A DNA stretch of 64,000 nucleotides, from NCBI GenBank assembly GCA_000002445.1, contig CM000207.1:2993548-3057547 (forward strand). Reading direction: 5' to 3'. Numbering within the stretch: the first letter of the stretch is position 1; the number at the start of each line of letters is the position of its first letter. This DNA comes from Trypanosoma brucei (taxonomy: Eukaryota). Below, piece after piece: positions 46,901 to 64,000 of this stretch. Position numbers: made by a program.

Positions 46901-49900
46901 GGAAGAAGTCCATGATAACACTCATAGGTTTGGTATCACGGGCAACCACTTTCCAACAAAACATAAAGAAGAACTAACGAGGGAAGAAGAAACGGCACTG
47001 GCACGCTTTCGGGTTGGGTTTTCAAGGCACTATGGATGGATGTTGCGAAAGATTAACCCGAGTGTGCCTCCACAGTGCCGATGGTGTAACCCGCAACATG
47101 CAGCGATAGGACCAACAATACAAACAGCCCCAACTGTTGTGACACGCACTCTTCAGAGAACCTCCGAACCGACCAAATGTACGGAATGTGATGCCACATA
47201 CCAATGCCGCTCGAGTGCTGTAACGCACATGGTAAACAAACACGGCTTTGTGCGAGCTGATGCCCTCCGGAGGATCAAATACGGTGATGCAACACCTGGA
47301 GTGGATATCCCCCCGGAGCCCCCTCCAGTGGTGGCAATCGTTCCTCTACCATCAAGCACACGAGTCCCGATGAGACCGCAGGTGCTTCATTGTACCCTCT
47401 GTGCCTCCAAATTCGCAGTGCCAGGCCGACTATTACACCACCTTAGAACAGTACATGGCATAGGCAGCGGTAGTTGCCGCGTGAAAAGGGGGCGAGAGAA
47501 CGAGGACTCATTGCAAGGAGATGGTAGCGCCCCAGCAGCGCCAGCCTCTCAGGATACACGGAAGCTGCCGTTTCAATGTGACCTGTGCGAGGCGAGCTTC
47601 GGTACACGCTCTTCCCTGTCACTACACAACAAATTCAAACATAAAAGCATAGTGACGGAGGACGGTACTGTGGTGGTGGTGCAATTCCCCCGTAAGCGTG
47701 CCCGTGAAGGAAACGTTGACGTCCCGGGGAAAGGCGAGGAGCAGTGTGGTGTGCGCCAAAAAGTGCTCAGTTGCAGGGACTCCCTCATCCGACACTGTAA
47801 GGCTTTCCATAAAGGTGAGAGAGTCGAGCTTTAATGCAGCAAAAGCACAGAATTGTGTGTCACTGATTCCCCACATACAAACACATCCATGTTGGTGTGC
47901 CTGACATGCGGAAGGCAGTGTGCTAGCAGAACTGGCCTCACCCTACATCAAAATAAGATGCACAGTATGAAGGTAGAGCGCGCTGTTACCAGACAACGCG
48001 GCGACTGCAAAGAAACGTCGCTGCACTTGATGAGCTGTCCCGGTTTGAAGGAATTACGTGTCAGGTTTGCGGTGGAAGGCGTGTGTGTGTGCAGAATGTA
48101 TGTTTCTCCAAAAGGCTGGCGCAATTTCTCATTGCCGTTGAACGGAGCCGGCCGCAGGTGAAGTCCTCCCCTAATGTATCAGTCATACAACCCACTCTCC
48201 ATTCTGCAACTTCCCCCCTTATTGCCGAGTGTGGAGCTAGCAGGAAAAGCACCGGATGTAGGAATAGTCCAGACACCCTCAGAGACAGAGGGGGTATGCA
48301 ATCAACAAGCAACAGAAACAGAAAAAGGGGAAGAGAATAATAAACGAATAACAAAAATCAAAACAAAAGGATTGCTAATTGACATCTTTTGGAGAGTCCG
48401 GAGTGGGGGGCTTCTCGCCCCATCTGCTGTATTCCGTTCAACTGCGGAGCTACAACAAAAAATTATAGAGAGTGTATTAGGCTGAATAAAAAAAAAGGGA
48501 GACTCTGCCACAGTCGCCAGACCGATAGCATCTCAGGATTCTACGGTGATGGCTGATGGCCGCGCCAGTGGGGGAAAACTCTCTTAAAGGCACAATGAAA
48601 ATTTTTAAAAAATTGTGTTCGGTTGTTTCGCCTGTGGTTAGCATGTTGTATAGTCTCCGTGCTTGCGTCGATTCCTGGACGTCGCTGAGAGTCATGTCAG
48701 TTGGCCGGCCTTCCGCGTACATTTAGGCTGCGCTTGGTTCGTTGACAGCGTGGTAAAGCTTTATGTACGGTTCTGGGGCGTTTTTGGTGTTGGTCGCGGA
48801 CCACCCTGTCAGGTCTTTGTACGTCGCTGTTGCACTTTTGGCTGTTACAGTCAGGTATCCTGCTGCATATGCTAGGTTGTCTGCTGTTTGTGCGCCATTT
48901 GCCATTCCTCCGCTGTTGTCGGTGTCGAACAGGGTGGACTTTGTTGTTGTGCCCCCTGGGCTTGTTTCGCCGGCTGAGCTACCCAGCGCTGCAAAGCCTG
49001 TCACCGAGATGAGCGTTTGTCTGCCCGTGCCTGTTTCGTCTATTGCCTCCTGGTTGGGCCCACAGGCGCCCAGGCCTTCGACAGTGGAGATTGTATTGGT
49101 GTTGTCTTTCGCAATGCATCCGACGTTACTTTGCCCGTTGTTGCCACTTTGTGCCGCGATTGTCATAAATTCCGACAGATGACCGTTTCGGAATGCTGAC
49201 GTCCCCGCTATTTTTACAGCTGTCGTTGCAATGTTGCCTAGGTCAGTTATTTTTGATCGTCTTTTGTCTGCGAACATTTCTAGAAGTGGAAGCATCATCT
49301 TTCTGAATTCAAGATTTTGTTGTACGTATATTTGAAGCTTTAACTCCTCTTCCTGCAGCTTTTTTCTGTCAAGAGCCGACTACGGAGTGCAGCCGCAACT
49401 TGTTTTGGTAGCTTGGGTAGTTCCGTATTCAGCGCACATATCTGCGCTTTTTTTTCCGTTTTCAGCGCTTCACCGTCTGCCGCCCGTGCATTTCTAGGCA
49501 GAATCAATAGTAAAACTAGCGTGCTAGCTGCGAGGACGTCAATAGCTATCTTCATTGCTGTTCCTTCTTGTAATTTCCAATCGGAAGGGGCGAGTTGTTC
49601 CTTGTATTGCATGTTTGTTGTAGCTCTGTAAGCATATAGTTTTGCACAAAGAATTACGGCTGCTTTATAATAAATCTCTTTTTTATACAAATTTTTCACG
49701 TTGTGCTGCGACTGCTATGTATGTTTCGATTCAAAAACCTGTTTGAGGAGCTTCATCTCCATAGTTACGATTTTTGAAGCTATTTTTGAAAATAAAAGTG
49801 TTTCCATTTTTATCATCTTACCGTTATTGCTGCTTTCATAGTCAGTCTGCTTCGCGTGCGGTAATTTCTGTGGAGGTGCATCGCTTGTCGGTTGGTCCGG

Positions 49901-61900: not shown

Positions 61901-64000
61901 CGCAACACAACCTGGGTAACCTTGCGCCGCAGGAAATTGACCAATCTTCGTTCTGTGTTGGGTTACTGCACGTCGCAGTGTTGCCTTTTTTGCTGTATAG
62001 TTCGATGGTGACTAGGATTTCTGGTTGCTCCTCCACCTCTACAAAAGCGCCTAGGTAGGCGGTGCCTGACGTTTAACTCGCGCTCGCCGCGTAGCCGGCG
62101 TCGGCCCCTTCGCCGCTGCCCAGCTGGCAGCAAGGGTCCCTTTGCCCTTGGCCAATGCTGTTAGCTTCCTTGGTGTGAACACAGCCTATGCGATTAGCTT
62201 GACAGCCTTGATCGTCGCTGGCTGGATCCCGCTGCGTTTCAGCTTGTGCTCGGCATCACTGACTTCCAGTAAACAGTTGTCGGCGTTTATTGCCGTTAGC
62301 GTCGGCTTCTTTGAGGCCTTGACTGTTGACGCTTGTGGTGAGGTGTCTGTTGTGTCGGTGGCAGTGGCTTGTCCTGGCGTCATCCTTGTTATTTTCAGCC
62401 TTCTATACATTTTTTTTAAATTTTCTTCGTGCCTTCGTGAGAGTTTCCCCCCACTGGCGCGGCCATCAGCCATCACCATAGAGCCCTGAGATGCTATCGG
62501 TCTGGCGACTGTGGCAGAGTCTCCCTTTTTTTTTATTCAGCCTAATACACTCTCTATAATTTTTTGTTGTAGCTCCGCAGTTGAACGGAATACAGCAGAT
62601 GGGGCGAGAAGCCCCCCACTCCGGACTCTCCAAAAGATGTCAATTAGCAATCCTTTTGTTTTGATTTTTGTTATTCGTTTATTATTCTCTTCCCCTTTTT
62701 CTGTTTCTGTTGCTTGTTGATTGCATACCCCCTCTGTCTCTGAGGGTGTCTGGACTATTCCTACATCCGGTGCTTTTCCTGCTAGCTCCACACTCGGCAA
62801 TAAGGGGGGAAGTTGCAGAATGGAGAGTGGGTTGTATGACTGATACATTAGGGGAGGACTTCACCTGCGGCCGGCTCCGTTCAACGGCAATGAGAAATTG
62901 CGCCAGCCTTTTGGAGAAACATACATTCTGCACACACACACGCCTTCCACCGCAAACCTGACACGTAATTCCTTCAAACCGGGACAGCTCATCAAGTGCA
63001 GCGACGTTTCTTCGCAGTCGCCGCGTTGGCTTGTAACAGCGCGCTCTACTTTCATACCGTGCATCTTCTTTTGATGTAGGATGAGGCCAGTTTTGCTAGC
63101 ACACTGCCTTCCGCATGTCGGGCACACCAACATGGATGTGTTTGTATGCGGGGAATCAGTGGCTCACAATTTTGTGCTTTTGTTGCTTTTAAGCTCGACT
63201 CCCTCACCTTTGTGGAAAGCCTTACAGTGTCGGATGAGGGAGTCCCTGCAACTGAGCACTTTTTGGCACACACCACACTGCACCTCGCCTTTCCCCGGGA
63301 CGTCAACGTTTCCCTCACGGGCACGCTTACGAGGGAATTGCACCACCACCACGGTACCTTCCTCCGTCATTATGCTCTTATGTTTGAATTTCTTGTGTAG
63401 TGACAGGGAAGAACGTGTACCGAAGCTCGCCTCGCACAGGTCACATTGAAACGGCAGCTTCCGTGTATCCTGAGGGGCTGGCACTGCTGGGGCTCTACCA
63501 TCTCCTTGCAATGAGTCTTCGTTCTCTCGCCCCCTTTTCACGCGGCAACTACCGCTGCCTATGCCATGTATTGTTCTAAGGTGGTGTAGTAGTCGGCCTG
63601 GCACTGCGAATTTGGAGGCACAGAGGGTACAATGAAGCACCTGCGGTCTCATCGGGAGTCGTGTGCTCGATGGTAGAGGAACGATCGCCACCACTGGAGG
63701 GGGCTCCGGGGGGATGTCCACTGCAGGTGTTGCATCACCGTATTTGATCCTCCGGAGGGCATCAGCTCGCACAAAGCCGTGTTTGTTTACCATGTGCGTT
63801 ACAGCACTCGACCGGCATTGGTATGTGGCATCACATTCCGTACATTTGGTCGGTTCGGAGGTTCTCTGAAGAGTGCGTGTCGCAACAGTTGGGGCTGTTT
63901 GTATTGTTGGCCCTATCGCTGCATGTTGCGTGTTGCACCATCGGCACTGTGGAGGCACACTCGGGTTGATCTTTCGCAACATCCATCCATAGTGCTTGAA

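What the first reader, a model, noticed from the sequence alone, without database searches (positions are those of the whole stretch)
47900..64000. Inverted pair of ingi copies with identical ~550-bp 3' ends flanks a 13.8 kb block of five VSG cassettes
ingi-2 (+) and ingi-3 (-) are head-to-head relative to the intervening VSG-12 to VSG-16 block. In the ORF track four peptides (69, 103, 97 and 85 aa) from their 3' ends are 100% identical. Identity decays further in (47853..48161 vs 62861..63133 differ at several residues). This is the signature of terminal gene conversion or a very recent event. Such inverted repeats are substrates for inversion of the enclosed VSG block. The ingi-3 tail (..cacgaaggcacgaagaaaattt) resembles ingi-1 rather than ingi-2, so the copies are mosaics.
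Basis: seen in the sequence. Interest (0 to 1): 0.6.

Follow-up and report, generated by a model that had tools for sequence, protein, structure and literature searches.

The report
Gene-conversion patch between inverted ingi retrotransposons
Two dead copies of the trypanosome ingi retrotransposon, in opposite orientation on either side of five silent surface-antigen (VSG) genes, share a 528-base stretch of perfect identity that was almost certainly copied from one to the other by DNA repair; this is a real but ordinary footprint of recombination between repeats.

Summary
Ingi-2 (c2, 43357-48612, +) and ingi-3 (c3, 62409 to the window end, -) bracket a 13,796-bp block of five minus-strand VSG pseudogenes or genes. 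Over their 1.59-kb overlap they differ at 59 positions, yet 48010-48537 is identical to 62485-63012 (528/528; P about 3e-9).

Two corrections are needed:
- The tract is sub-terminal. The last 75 bp differ at 11 sites.
- The copies are tail-to-tail, with their 3' ends facing the block, not head-to-head.

Eleven other ingi copies from T. b. equiperdum and T. b. gambiense served as outgroups. They show a switch in relationships: (c1,c2),c3 up to 48009, then (c2,c3),c1 inside the tract. The tract holds 10 sites private to c2 and c3, including a shared frameshifting GC insertion. The strange tail belongs to c2; c3 and c1 carry the family consensus there.

The best explanation is a non-crossover ectopic gene conversion, probably c3 to c2. 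I found no sign of inversion: all 12 VSG 3'-UTR motifs lie on the minus strand, inside and outside the block. Orientation in other isolates could not be tested.

Ingi elements in VSG arrays, and recombination between them, are already documented. Interest is low.

The parts
43357..48612 (+). ingi-2 (c2). A full-length (5,256 bp) but dead Tbingi non-LTR retrotransposon. It has the 5' 'CCCTGGCGATGCCGGCCACC...' signature, RT, RNase H and C2H2 zinc-finger regions, and an A6 tail. It carries 7 in-frame stop codons and has no 12-bp target-site duplication.
   Evidence: Pfam finds RVT_1, RNase_H and zf-C2H2. tblastn with the 1,656-aa ingi protein P0012 covers 43365-48337 at about 93% identity. The 5' and 3' junctions were compared with 6 outgroup copies. 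Stop codons. Target-site duplication test.
62409..64000 (-). ingi-3 (c3). The 3' 1.59 kb of a Tbingi copy on the minus strand, cut by the window end. Its A8 tail at 62409 faces the VSG block.
   Evidence: P0012 aa 1220-1656 map to 63997-62685.
48010..48537 (+). The conversion tract in c2. It is 528 bp, 100% identical to c3 62485-63012. It covers the last ~109 codons of the ingi ORF plus ~200 bp of the 3' UTR. The minimum tract defined by c2+c3-private sites is 48079-48489.
62485..63012 (-). The conversion tract in c3, the partner of 48010-48537.
48079..48080 (+). A GC insertion that shifts the ingi reading frame. It is shared by c2 and c3 (62942-62943) and absent from c1 and all 11 outgroup copies.
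   Evidence: The tblastn HSP breaks at aa 1573/1574 in both c2 and c3 but not in c1.
47701..48009 (+). The left flank of the tract in c2. It holds 12 c2-private substitutions (3.9 per 100 bp), against 5 c3-private ones in the homologous c3 segment.
48538..48612 (+). The diverged c2 tail (...CTTAAAGGCACAATGAAAATTTTTAAAAAA), with 9-10 c2-private changes. c3 (62409-62484), c1 and all 8 outgroups that cover it carry the consensus ...CACGAAGGCACGAAGAAAATT...
48613..62408 (-). The 13,796-bp block of five minus-strand VSG units between the two ingi tails.
48613..49699 (-). VSG-12. An A-type VSG N-terminal domain with signal peptide. Its C-terminal part and 3' UTR are missing where it meets the c2 tail.
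   Evidence: Pfam Trypan_glycop on 48723-49298 (9e-16) and 49340-49699 (6e-5). Frame translations.
51177..52472 (-). VSG-13. A B-type VSG domain plus a VSG C-terminal domain.
   Evidence: Pfam VSG_B 3.2e-45 and Trypan_glycop_C 8.5e-4.
54521..55962 (-). VSG-14. A frameshifted A-type VSG with the 3'-UTR 16-mer at 54521-54536.
   Evidence: Pfam Trypan_glycop 1.7e-15 on 55606-55962. 16-mer.
57915..59527 (-). VSG-15. An apparently intact 456-aa B-type VSG, 93% identical to Lister 427 VSG 1218, with the 3'-UTR 16-mer at 57915-57930.
61274..62408 (-). VSG-16. A heavily frameshifted VSG pseudogene with a GPI-signal-like C-terminus and the 16-mer at 61274-61289. Its N-terminal part is cut off where it meets the c3 tail.
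27557..30025 (+). ingi-1 (c1). A 5'-truncated Tbingi copy used as the third taxon. It is sister to c2 over 46140-48009 and differs from c2=c3 at 23 sites inside the tract.

Best explanation
The window is a silent subtelomeric VSG array of a Trypanosoma brucei-group parasite with three defective Tbingi retrotransposons. Ingi-2 and ingi-3 lie tail-to-tail around five VSG units.

A DNA lesion in one copy was repaired by homologous recombination, using the other copy as template, without crossing over. Ingi-2 was probably the broken copy. In T. brucei this pathway is RAD51-dependent, templated, non-crossover gene conversion. A patch of 411-528 bp was copied, covering the end of the ORF and the start of the 3' UTR. 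That erased all differences inside it and left about 5% divergence on both sides. Because no crossover took place, the intervening VSG block kept its orientation.

Shown here: the tract, its statistical significance, the switch in relationships, the shared private variants including a frameshift, and the unchanged VSG polarity.

Inferred: the repair mechanism, the direction c3 to c2, and the idea that the new 528-bp perfect homology makes the pair a better substrate for future recombination, including inversion.
For: 1. A 528/528 identity run sits inside a pair that otherwise differs at 59 of 1,592 columns. P is about 2.8e-9, and no random placement in 20,000 reached it.
2. It is the longest run among 91 pairs of 14 ingi copies, where the median is 88 bp.
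3. The topology switches. In 47027-48009 there are 28 sites with c1=c2 and 19 with c2=c3. In the tract the counts are 0 and 23. In the tail, 10 sites have c1=c3. Fisher P = 2.7e-7 and 1.1e-8.
4. Polarised against six outgroup copies, there are seven '110' (c1+c2 derived) and no '011' (c2+c3 derived) sites in 47021-47700, but twelve '011' sites inside the tract.
5. Ten tract sites are private to c2+c3 against c1 and seven outgroup copies that reach the element's 3' end. Eight of them are absent from all copies that cover them, including the frameshifting GC insertion at 48079-80. A shared disabling lesion in two otherwise 5%-diverged dead copies points to DNA-level copying, not common descent from an active master.
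6. Non-crossover: the heavily diverged c2 segments lie on both sides of the tract in the same copy (3.9 and 10 private sites per 100 bp). Both c3 flanks are consensus-like at 1.6 and 1.5.
7. Direction: the tract carries 10 shared-private sites. That fits the c3 rate (P(>=10) = 0.12) and not the c2 rate (P(<=10) = 3e-5).
8. All 12 VSG 3'-UTR 16-mers are on the minus strand, inside and outside the block.
9. Literature:
   - T. brucei repairs breaks by templated non-crossover conversion from homologous donors (PMC13233330).
   - Its homologous recombination is length-dependent and mismatch-sensitive, and mismatches may be corrected by short-patch repair (PMC1904282).
   - Ingi and RIME recombine and cause rearrangements (PMC2854126).
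   - Ingi lie within VSG arrays (PMC3553974).
Against: - Only 11 outgroup copies were available, and all come from other subspecies. T. brucei has many more ingi copies. A third copy in the same genome carrying this haplotype could have been the donor to one or both.
- The direction test assumes that c2's private divergence would have been uniform across its last 900 bp. c2's private sites are patchy elsewhere too, for example 13 in 44257-44556.
- c3 is cut by the window end, so its 5' flank and target-site duplication cannot be examined.
- The source assembly and its read support are unknown, so a polishing artefact cannot be formally excluded.
Confidence: 0.7

Rival explanations
1. Third-party donor or subfamily haplotype. 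An unsampled ingi copy elsewhere in the same genome carries the tract haplotype. Either it converted c2 and c3 independently, or one of them is a descendant of it and the other was converted by it. In that case c2 and c3 never interacted directly.
For: Donors for templated repair in T. brucei can be used regardless of genomic position (PMC13233330). Only 11 outgroup copies were sampled, none from the source strain. Two of the c2+c3 variants (C48169, A48402) also occur in L008a/b, so parts of the haplotype circulate.
Against: Eight of the ten shared variants, including the frameshift insertion, are absent from every sampled copy. Two independent conversions are less parsimonious than one.
Confidence: 0.15
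2. Crossover between the inverted copies. The tract is the heteroduplex or conversion region of a reciprocal exchange that inverted the 13.8-kb VSG block. On this reading the present arrangement is a product of inversion.
For: Inverted repeats with hundreds of bp of homology are classical inversion substrates. c2 lacks a target-site duplication, so it has taken part in some rearrangement. Inversions and ingi-mediated rearrangements are reported between T. brucei subspecies (PMC2854126).
Against: The VSG genes in the block have the same polarity as the nine VSG units outside it. The c2 5' flank (TTTGGCTTTATA) does not match the c3 3' flank (TGTATAGAAGGC); alignment score 12, reached by 212 of 500 shuffles. 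The highly diverged c2 sequence lies on both sides of the tract in the same copy, whereas a crossover inside the tract would have separated the two sides.
Confidence: 0.05
3. Assembly or polishing artefact. Reads from one ingi copy were used to correct the other, which homogenised a stretch of the consensus.
For: Ingi is a 5-kb dispersed repeat. Repeats in subtelomeres are the places where consensus polishing with multi-mapping reads goes wrong. The source assembly is unknown: no exact protein match was found for four window-encoded proteins looked up, three VSG ORFs and one ingi-tract ORF, in public annotated assemblies.
Against: The tract has sharp edges and is flanked on both sides by many copy-specific variants that were kept. 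A similar excess of local similarity is seen in an independent assembly: the L002 inverted pair shares 7 private sites. The tract carries its own private variants rather than the family consensus.
Confidence: 0.06
4. Chimeric insertion by reverse-transcriptase template switching. One copy was generated from two or more ingi RNAs during target-primed reverse transcription.
For: Non-LTR retrotransposon reverse transcriptases can switch templates. c2 is patchy along its whole length.
Against: At least two switches would be needed within the last 600 nt (tail, then tract, then left flank). The tract also carries a frameshift, and c2 has 7 stop codons. c2 has no target-site duplication to mark an intact insertion event.
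Confidence: 0.03
5. Chance, or purifying selection on a conserved 3' segment.
For: None beyond the fact that the segment includes the ORF end and the 3' UTR.
Against: P is about 3e-9 for the run. c1 differs at 23 sites in the same segment, and the outgroups vary there too. All three copies are dead.
Confidence: 0.01

Closest known systems
Tbingi/TbRIME non-LTR retrotransposons (ingi4 subclade) of Trypanosoma brucei
   Same: c2 has the conserved 5' signature, a 5.25-kb length, endonuclease/RT/RNase H/zinc-finger coding capacity (about 93% amino-acid identity to an intact 1,656-aa T. b. equiperdum ingi protein) and a poly(A) tail. It sits in a VSG array, where ingi are known to occur (PMC3553974, PMC3820030).
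   Different: All three copies are defective. c2 lacks the 12-bp target-site duplication that three or four of the five full-length outgroup copies still show. c1 is 5'-truncated.
Ectopic (interlocus) gene conversion between dispersed retrotransposon copies, as known for LINE-1 and Alu in mammals and Ty in yeast, and ingi/RIME-mediated rearrangements in T. brucei (PMC2854126)
   Same: A sharply bounded tract of identity lies in otherwise diverged paralogous repeats. Relationships disagree across the breakpoints, and the flanks are unchanged.
   Different: Nothing essential differs. This is one specific instance, in inverted orientation, inside a silent VSG array.
Segmental (mosaic) VSG gene conversion in T. 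brucei (PMC13233330; Marcello & Barry 2007, cited from memory)
   Same: Presumably the same machinery: templated, non-crossover, homology-driven patch repair. The chromosomal compartment is the same.
   Different: The substrate is a retrotransposon, not an antigen gene. There is no selection by host antibody. The tract (411-528 bp) is longer than the short inserts reported for Cas9-induced VSG mosaics (under 300 bp, mean 55 bp).
Inverted-repeat-mediated inversion, for example by non-allelic homologous recombination between inverted LINEs or segmental duplications
   Same: The architecture fits: inverted repeats of at least 1.6 kb flank a 13.8-kb unique block, now with 528 bp of perfect homology.
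   Different: No inversion is demonstrated. VSG polarity and the flank tests argue against a net inversion in this sequence.

Membership tests
Tbingi non-LTR retrotransposon | Conserved 76-79-bp 5' signature (CCCTGGCGATGCCGGCCACCTCAACGTGGTGCC...) | tested here: met
   c2 starts at 43357 with this sequence. The first 30 nt shown are identical in five full-length outgroup ingi copies. c1 is 5'-truncated and the c3 5' end lies outside the window.
Tbingi non-LTR retrotransposon | About 5.2-kb length with one long ORF encoding endonuclease, reverse transcriptase, RNase H and a C2H2 zinc finger | tested here: met
   c2 is 5,256 bp. Pfam finds RVT_1 (9e-34), RNase_H (6e-10) and zf-C2H2. tblastn with P0012 aa 1-1656 maps to 43365-48337 at about 93% identity. 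The ORF is broken by 7 stops and 1 frameshift.
Tbingi non-LTR retrotransposon | 3' poly(A) tail | tested here: met
   A6 (c2), A8 (c3) and A10 (c1) follow the conserved ...GAAAATTT motif.
Tbingi non-LTR retrotransposon | 12-bp target-site duplication (PMC3820030) | tested here: not met
   The c2 5' flank TTTGGCTTTATA and 3' flank TTGTGTTCGGTT match at 5 of 12 positions. c1 shows none either. c3 is not testable. Outgroups L004, L006 and L002 show clear duplications. I read this as a later rearrangement, not as non-membership.
VSG cassette in a silent array | VSG N-terminal (A or B type) and C-terminal domains | tested here: met
   Pfam finds Trypan_glycop, VSG_B and Trypan_glycop_C on ORFs of VSG-12, -13, -14 and -15. 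VSG-16 is recognised only from its translation and its GPI-signal-like end.
VSG cassette in a silent array | Conserved 16-mer TGATATATTTTAACAC in the 3' UTR | tested here: met
   There are 12 matches with at most 2 mismatches, all on the minus strand, against 0.16 expected. Three lie inside the block at 54521, 57915 and 61274. VSG-13 has no match at this stringency. VSG-12 lacks its 3' end.
Non-crossover gene-conversion tract | Identity run significantly longer than the background divergence allows | tested here: met
   528 bp, P about 2.8e-9. It is the longest of 91 pairs.
Non-crossover gene-conversion tract | Phylogenetic incongruence across both breakpoints | tested here: met
   Fisher P = 2.7e-7 (left) and 1.1e-8 (right). 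Polarised site patterns.
Non-crossover gene-conversion tract | Flanking sequence on both sides keeps the recipient's own identity, meaning no exchange of flanks | tested here: met
   c2-private variants cluster on both sides of the tract within c2 (12 and 7-10 sites), while the c3 flanks are consensus-like.
Non-crossover gene-conversion tract | Donor and recipient identified, with the ancestral state of each copy known | not testable with these tools
   This needs the same locus in other isolates or all ingi copies of the source genome. The only evidence here is a density argument favouring c3 to c2.
Inverted-repeat-mediated inversion | Enclosed genes reversed relative to the surrounding array | tested here: not met
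   All VSG 16-mers inside and outside the block are on the minus strand.
Inverted-repeat-mediated inversion | Target-site duplications exchanged between the two repeat copies | tested here: inconclusive
   The c2 5' flank does not match the c3 3' flank. The reciprocal test needs the c3 5' flank, which lies beyond the window.
Inverted-repeat-mediated inversion | Both orientations seen among isolates or reads | not testable with these tools
   The only related locus found (L007, T. b. gambiense chromosome 9) shares 6.2 kb at 87.6% identity with 54742-60944 but has different flanks.

The most novel reading that the evidence does not exclude
Local homogenisation of neighbouring inverted ingi copies may be a recurrent process in VSG arrays. 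It would keep such pairs competent for recombination despite mismatch-repair barriers. The pairs would then act as flip or deletion hinges that repeatedly reorient or reshuffle multi-VSG blocks. The clusters of private substitutions that hug both edges of the tract in c2 (3.9 and 10 per 100 bp) could be the scar of error-prone repair synthesis rather than old divergence. A second tail-to-tail pair sharing private variants, L002 in T. b. equiperdum, hints that the pattern is not unique.
Probability: 0.1. Interest if true: 0.45.

Novelty: already known. Interest (0 to 1): 0.2.

Why it matters
The locus gives a clean, polarised example of ectopic gene conversion acting on non-VSG repeats inside a silent VSG array, where host antibody exerts no selection on the product. 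That is modest support for the view that templated patch repair goes on continuously in the archive.

It also marks three ingi junctions where VSG genes are truncated. This fits the view that ingi copies are breakpoints of array rearrangement.

The new 528-bp perfect homology should raise the recombination competence of this pair. In T. brucei, 5% divergence lowers recombination on 450-bp substrates about 33-fold (PMC1904282). The locus is therefore a reasonable place to look for an inversion polymorphism in long-read data.

None of this would surprise a specialist.

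Tried and rejected
- Finding the source locus or the same locus in other isolates. Exact look-ups of three window VSG proteins and one ingi-tract ORF found nothing. Homology searches with VSG-15 and VSG-13 found only paralogue-level matches: 93% to Lister 427 VSG 1218, 82% to a DAL972 protein, and 73-86% to others without contigs. The DAL972 locus L007 shares 6.2 kb at 87.6% identity but has different flanks, so it cannot serve as an orientation test.
- Target-site duplication tests for a past crossover. 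No pairing was found between the c2 or c1 5' flanks and any of the three 3' flanks. The one exception is a weak 19/22 similarity between the c2 5' flank (43322-43342) and its own 3' flank (48618-48638), in T/G-rich sequence and not adjacent to the element ends. It was reached by 1 of 500 shuffles, with six comparisons made. I do not read it as a duplication.
- A model in which c2 is a deletion chimera of two direct ingi copies joined near 47700. It would explain the missing duplication and the truncated VSG-12, and the 3' 912 bp has 4.1 singletons per 100 bp against 1.8 upstream (P about 1e-5). However, c2's private sites are also patchy elsewhere, for example 13 in 44257-44556. The model stays a suggestion.
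- Rfam (gathering thresholds) and tRNA scans of the whole window found nothing.
- Selective conservation of the tract was rejected.

Full report
WHAT THE WINDOW IS

The window is a silent VSG array of a Trypanosoma brucei-group parasite. Twelve copies of the VSG 3'-UTR 16-mer TGATATATTTTAACAC (at most 2 mismatches; 0.16 expected by chance) are present, all on the minus strand. ORFs between them carry Pfam VSG A-type, B-type and C-terminal domains. VSG-15 is 93% identical to Lister 427 VSG 1218. I found no exact match to any public annotated protein, so the source strain is unknown.

Three copies of one 5.2-kb repeat interrupt the array:
- c1: 27557-30025 (+), 5'-truncated.
- c2: 43357-48612 (+), full length.
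- c3: 62409 to the window end (-).

They encode reverse transcriptase, RNase H and C2H2 zinc-finger regions. They are about 90-94% identical at protein level to a 1,656-aa ingi protein of T. b. equiperdum. c2 begins with the conserved ingi-clade 5' signature and ends in a poly(A) tail. These are Tbingi elements. All three are dead: c2 has seven in-frame stops, c1 has a 1-bp deletion, and c2 and c3 share a frameshift.

CHECKING THE OBSERVATION

- The inverted repeat is 47021-48613 vs 62409-64000, 96.4% identical, with arms 13.8 kb apart.
- In the three-way alignment, c2 and c3 differ at 59 of 1,592 columns. None of the differences falls in 48010-48537 = 62485-63012, which is 528/528 identical.
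- Random placement of 59 differences gives a mean longest run of 122 bp and never reached 528 in 20,000 trials. The analytic P is about 2.8e-9.
- The four identical peptides of 69, 103, 97 and 85 aa are there.
- The segment is not generally conserved. c1 differs from c2 and c3 at 23 sites within it.

Two descriptive corrections:
- The tract is sub-terminal. The terminal 75 bp differ at 11 sites.
- Both poly(A) tails abut the VSG block, so the pair is tail-to-tail (convergent).

The block is 13,796 bp and holds five minus-strand VSG units. VSG-12 loses its C-terminal part at the c2 tail, and VSG-16 loses its N-terminal part at the c3 tail.

OUTGROUP COPIES

Through the protein cluster of the ingi ORF I retrieved nine loci from T. 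b. equiperdum and T. b. gambiense assemblies. They gave 11 further ingi 3' regions. Typical pairs are 93-96% identical, with a median longest identical run of 88 bp. The c2-c3 run is the longest of all 91 pairs. The only other long runs belong to three locally duplicated fragments that are uniformly about 98.5% identical.

Polarising the variable sites against the outgroup consensus gives a clean mosaic.

| Segment (c2 coordinates) | Pattern |
|---|---|
| 46140-48009 | c1 and c2 share derived states: seven '110' sites and no '011' sites in 47021-47700, plus two more '110' sites at 47964 and 48009. |
| 48010-48537 (tract) | Twelve '011' sites and no c2-only or c3-only site. Ten sites are private to c2+c3 against c1 and seven outgroup copies that reach the element's 3' end. 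Eight are absent from every sampled copy. |
| 48538-48612 (tail) | c2 has 9-10 private changes. c3 equals c1 and all outgroups that cover the tail. |

Fisher tests across the two boundaries give P = 2.7e-7 and 1.1e-8. One of the private variants is a GC insertion at 48079-80 (= 62942-43). It shifts the ingi reading frame in both copies but not in c1.

INTERPRETATION

Two dead copies differ by about 5% on both sides of the patch. Inside it they share a disabling lesion and several other private variants. This is the signature of DNA-level ectopic gene conversion. It is not common descent from a master element, and it is not selection.

The event was a patch rather than a crossover. In c2 the unusually diverged sequence lies on both sides of the tract (3.9 private sites per 100 bp to the left, about 10 per 100 bp to the right). 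Both c3 flanks are consensus-like at 1.6 and 1.5 per 100 bp. A crossover inside the tract would have separated the two c2 flanks.

The same densities suggest the direction. The tract's 10 shared-private sites fit c3's own rate (P(>=10) = 0.12) and not c2's (P(<=10) = 3e-5). The likeliest history is a break in c2 repaired from c3. This step is inference, because c2's private sites are patchy elsewhere too. A third, unsampled donor in the same genome cannot be excluded.

The mechanism fits what is established for T. brucei:
- Breaks are repaired by RAD51-dependent, templated, non-crossover conversion (PMC13233330).
- Recombination is length-dependent and mismatch-sensitive, and mismatches may be corrected by short-patch repair (PMC1904282).

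THE INVERSION IDEA

The architecture is that of an inversion substrate. The new 528-bp perfect tract should make the pair more recombinogenic. On 450-bp substrates, 5% divergence lowers recombination about 33-fold, and the minimal efficient processing segment is about 100 bp (PMC1904282).

Nothing in the sequence shows that an inversion has occurred:
- The VSG units in the block have the same polarity as the nine outside it.
- The c2 5' flank does not pair with the c3 3' flank as an exchanged duplication.

The reciprocal test needs the c3 5' flank, which lies beyond the window. Orientation in other isolates could not be examined. The only related locus found (L007, T. b. gambiense chromosome 9) is a diverged relative (87.6% identity over 6.2 kb) with different flanks.

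OTHER STRUCTURAL POINTS

c2 has no 12-bp target-site duplication, although three or four of the five full-length outgroup copies do. Twelve bp is the rule for Tbingi (PMC3820030). Each of the three ingi copies has one end abutting a truncated VSG, with no VSG continuation detected at the other ends I could examine. None of them is therefore a simple untouched insertion. They mark rearrangement breakpoints in the array. c2 may be a deletion chimera of two direct copies, but the evidence is only suggestive.

COMPARISON WITH WHAT IS KNOWN

The following are all documented:
- Ingi elements inside VSG arrays (PMC3553974).
- Recombination between ingi and RIME copies that causes rearrangements (PMC2854126).
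- Templated segmental conversion in T. brucei (PMC13233330).

Ectopic conversion between dispersed retrotransposon copies is a textbook phenomenon in other eukaryotes (my own knowledge). This locus is a well-resolved instance of a known process. It is not a new kind of element or mechanism.

VERDICT

Conversion and mosaicism hold. 'Terminal' and 'recent insertion' do not. The mosaic is mainly ingi-2. Inversion is only a possibility.
- Interest is low (0.2).

Noticed in passing
window 212-3026 (+), cut by the window start: A fourth retroelement, highly degenerate. It has a Pfam RVT_1 hit on 659-1267 and 31-44% amino-acid identity to ingi protein aa 372-1300 across several frames. It has no nucleotide similarity to c1-c3. 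It looks like a DIRE (degenerate ingi-related element).
   Followed up: partly
window 43322-43342 and 48618-48638: c2 lacks the 12-bp target-site duplication. Its 5' flank (TTCGATGTGTTTCGCCGTGGT, ending 14 bp before the element) resembles its 3' flank (TTCGGTTGTTTCGCCTGTGGT, starting 6 bp after the tail) at 19 of 22 positions. One of 500 shuffles reached this score. Its meaning is unclear: possibly T/G-rich chance similarity, or a remnant of the ingi insertion-site motif.
   Followed up: partly
window 27557-30025 vs 46140-48612: c1 and c2 are direct repeats flanking a 13.3-kb VSG block (30026-43356). They are sister copies over 46140-47700, sharing about 19 derived sites at roughly 1.5-2% divergence, but are about 6% apart in the last 900 bp. 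This is a second mosaic and a potential deletion substrate.
   Followed up: partly
window 27380-27556, 48613-48722, 62186-62408: All three ingi copies abut truncated VSG pseudogenes. VSG-7 is N-truncated at the c1 5' junction, VSG-12 is C-truncated at the c2 tail, and VSG-16 is N-truncated at the c3 tail. No continuation of the VSG was detected on the far side of c1 or c2 from frame translations (not testable for c3), so the ingi copies mark array breakpoints.
   Followed up: partly
window 43581-43619: The 2A-like peptide near the ingi N-terminus reads MLLSGDVEKNPSP in c2. Its NPGP motif is mutated to NPSP. Three outgroup copies keep DVEENPGP.
   Followed up: yes
window 25625-25993 and 60894-61031: 70-bp-repeat-like units sit upstream of VSG units. 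The first is followed by a (TTA)85 run at 25738-25993.
   Followed up: no
L002 2993-8241 (+) and 9904-10971 (-), T. b. equiperdum CM010672.1: Another tail-to-tail inverted ingi pair, only 1.66 kb apart. The two copies are 97.0% identical, against 94-96% to other copies, and share 7 private sites. This is a second example of local similarity between neighbouring inverted copies.
   Followed up: partly
L008 7483-13077, T. b. equiperdum CM010677.1: A cluster of ingi 3' fragments in alternating orientation (7483-8909 +, 10029-8897 -, 11358-11661 +, 13077-11649 -). They are 98-98.6% identical to each other, giving a palindromic local duplication.
   Followed up: no
L007 3125-6137 and 8323-14556, T. 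b. gambiense DAL972 FN554972.1 at 144-166 kb: A VSG island lies next to a core Sec1 gene. It contains a 6.2-kb two-VSG segment 87.6% identical to window 54742-60944. At the core/VSG boundary there is an ingi fragment whose 5' end faces the VSG genes. It may correspond to the chromosome 9 VSG 'island' described for T. b. gambiense (PMC2854126).
   Followed up: partly
window 33609-35102 (-): An intact-looking 497-aa ORF with a signal-peptide-like start lies in a VSG position, with the 16-mer at 33507. It gives no Pfam VSG hit at E <= 0.01 and has no exact public match.
   Followed up: no
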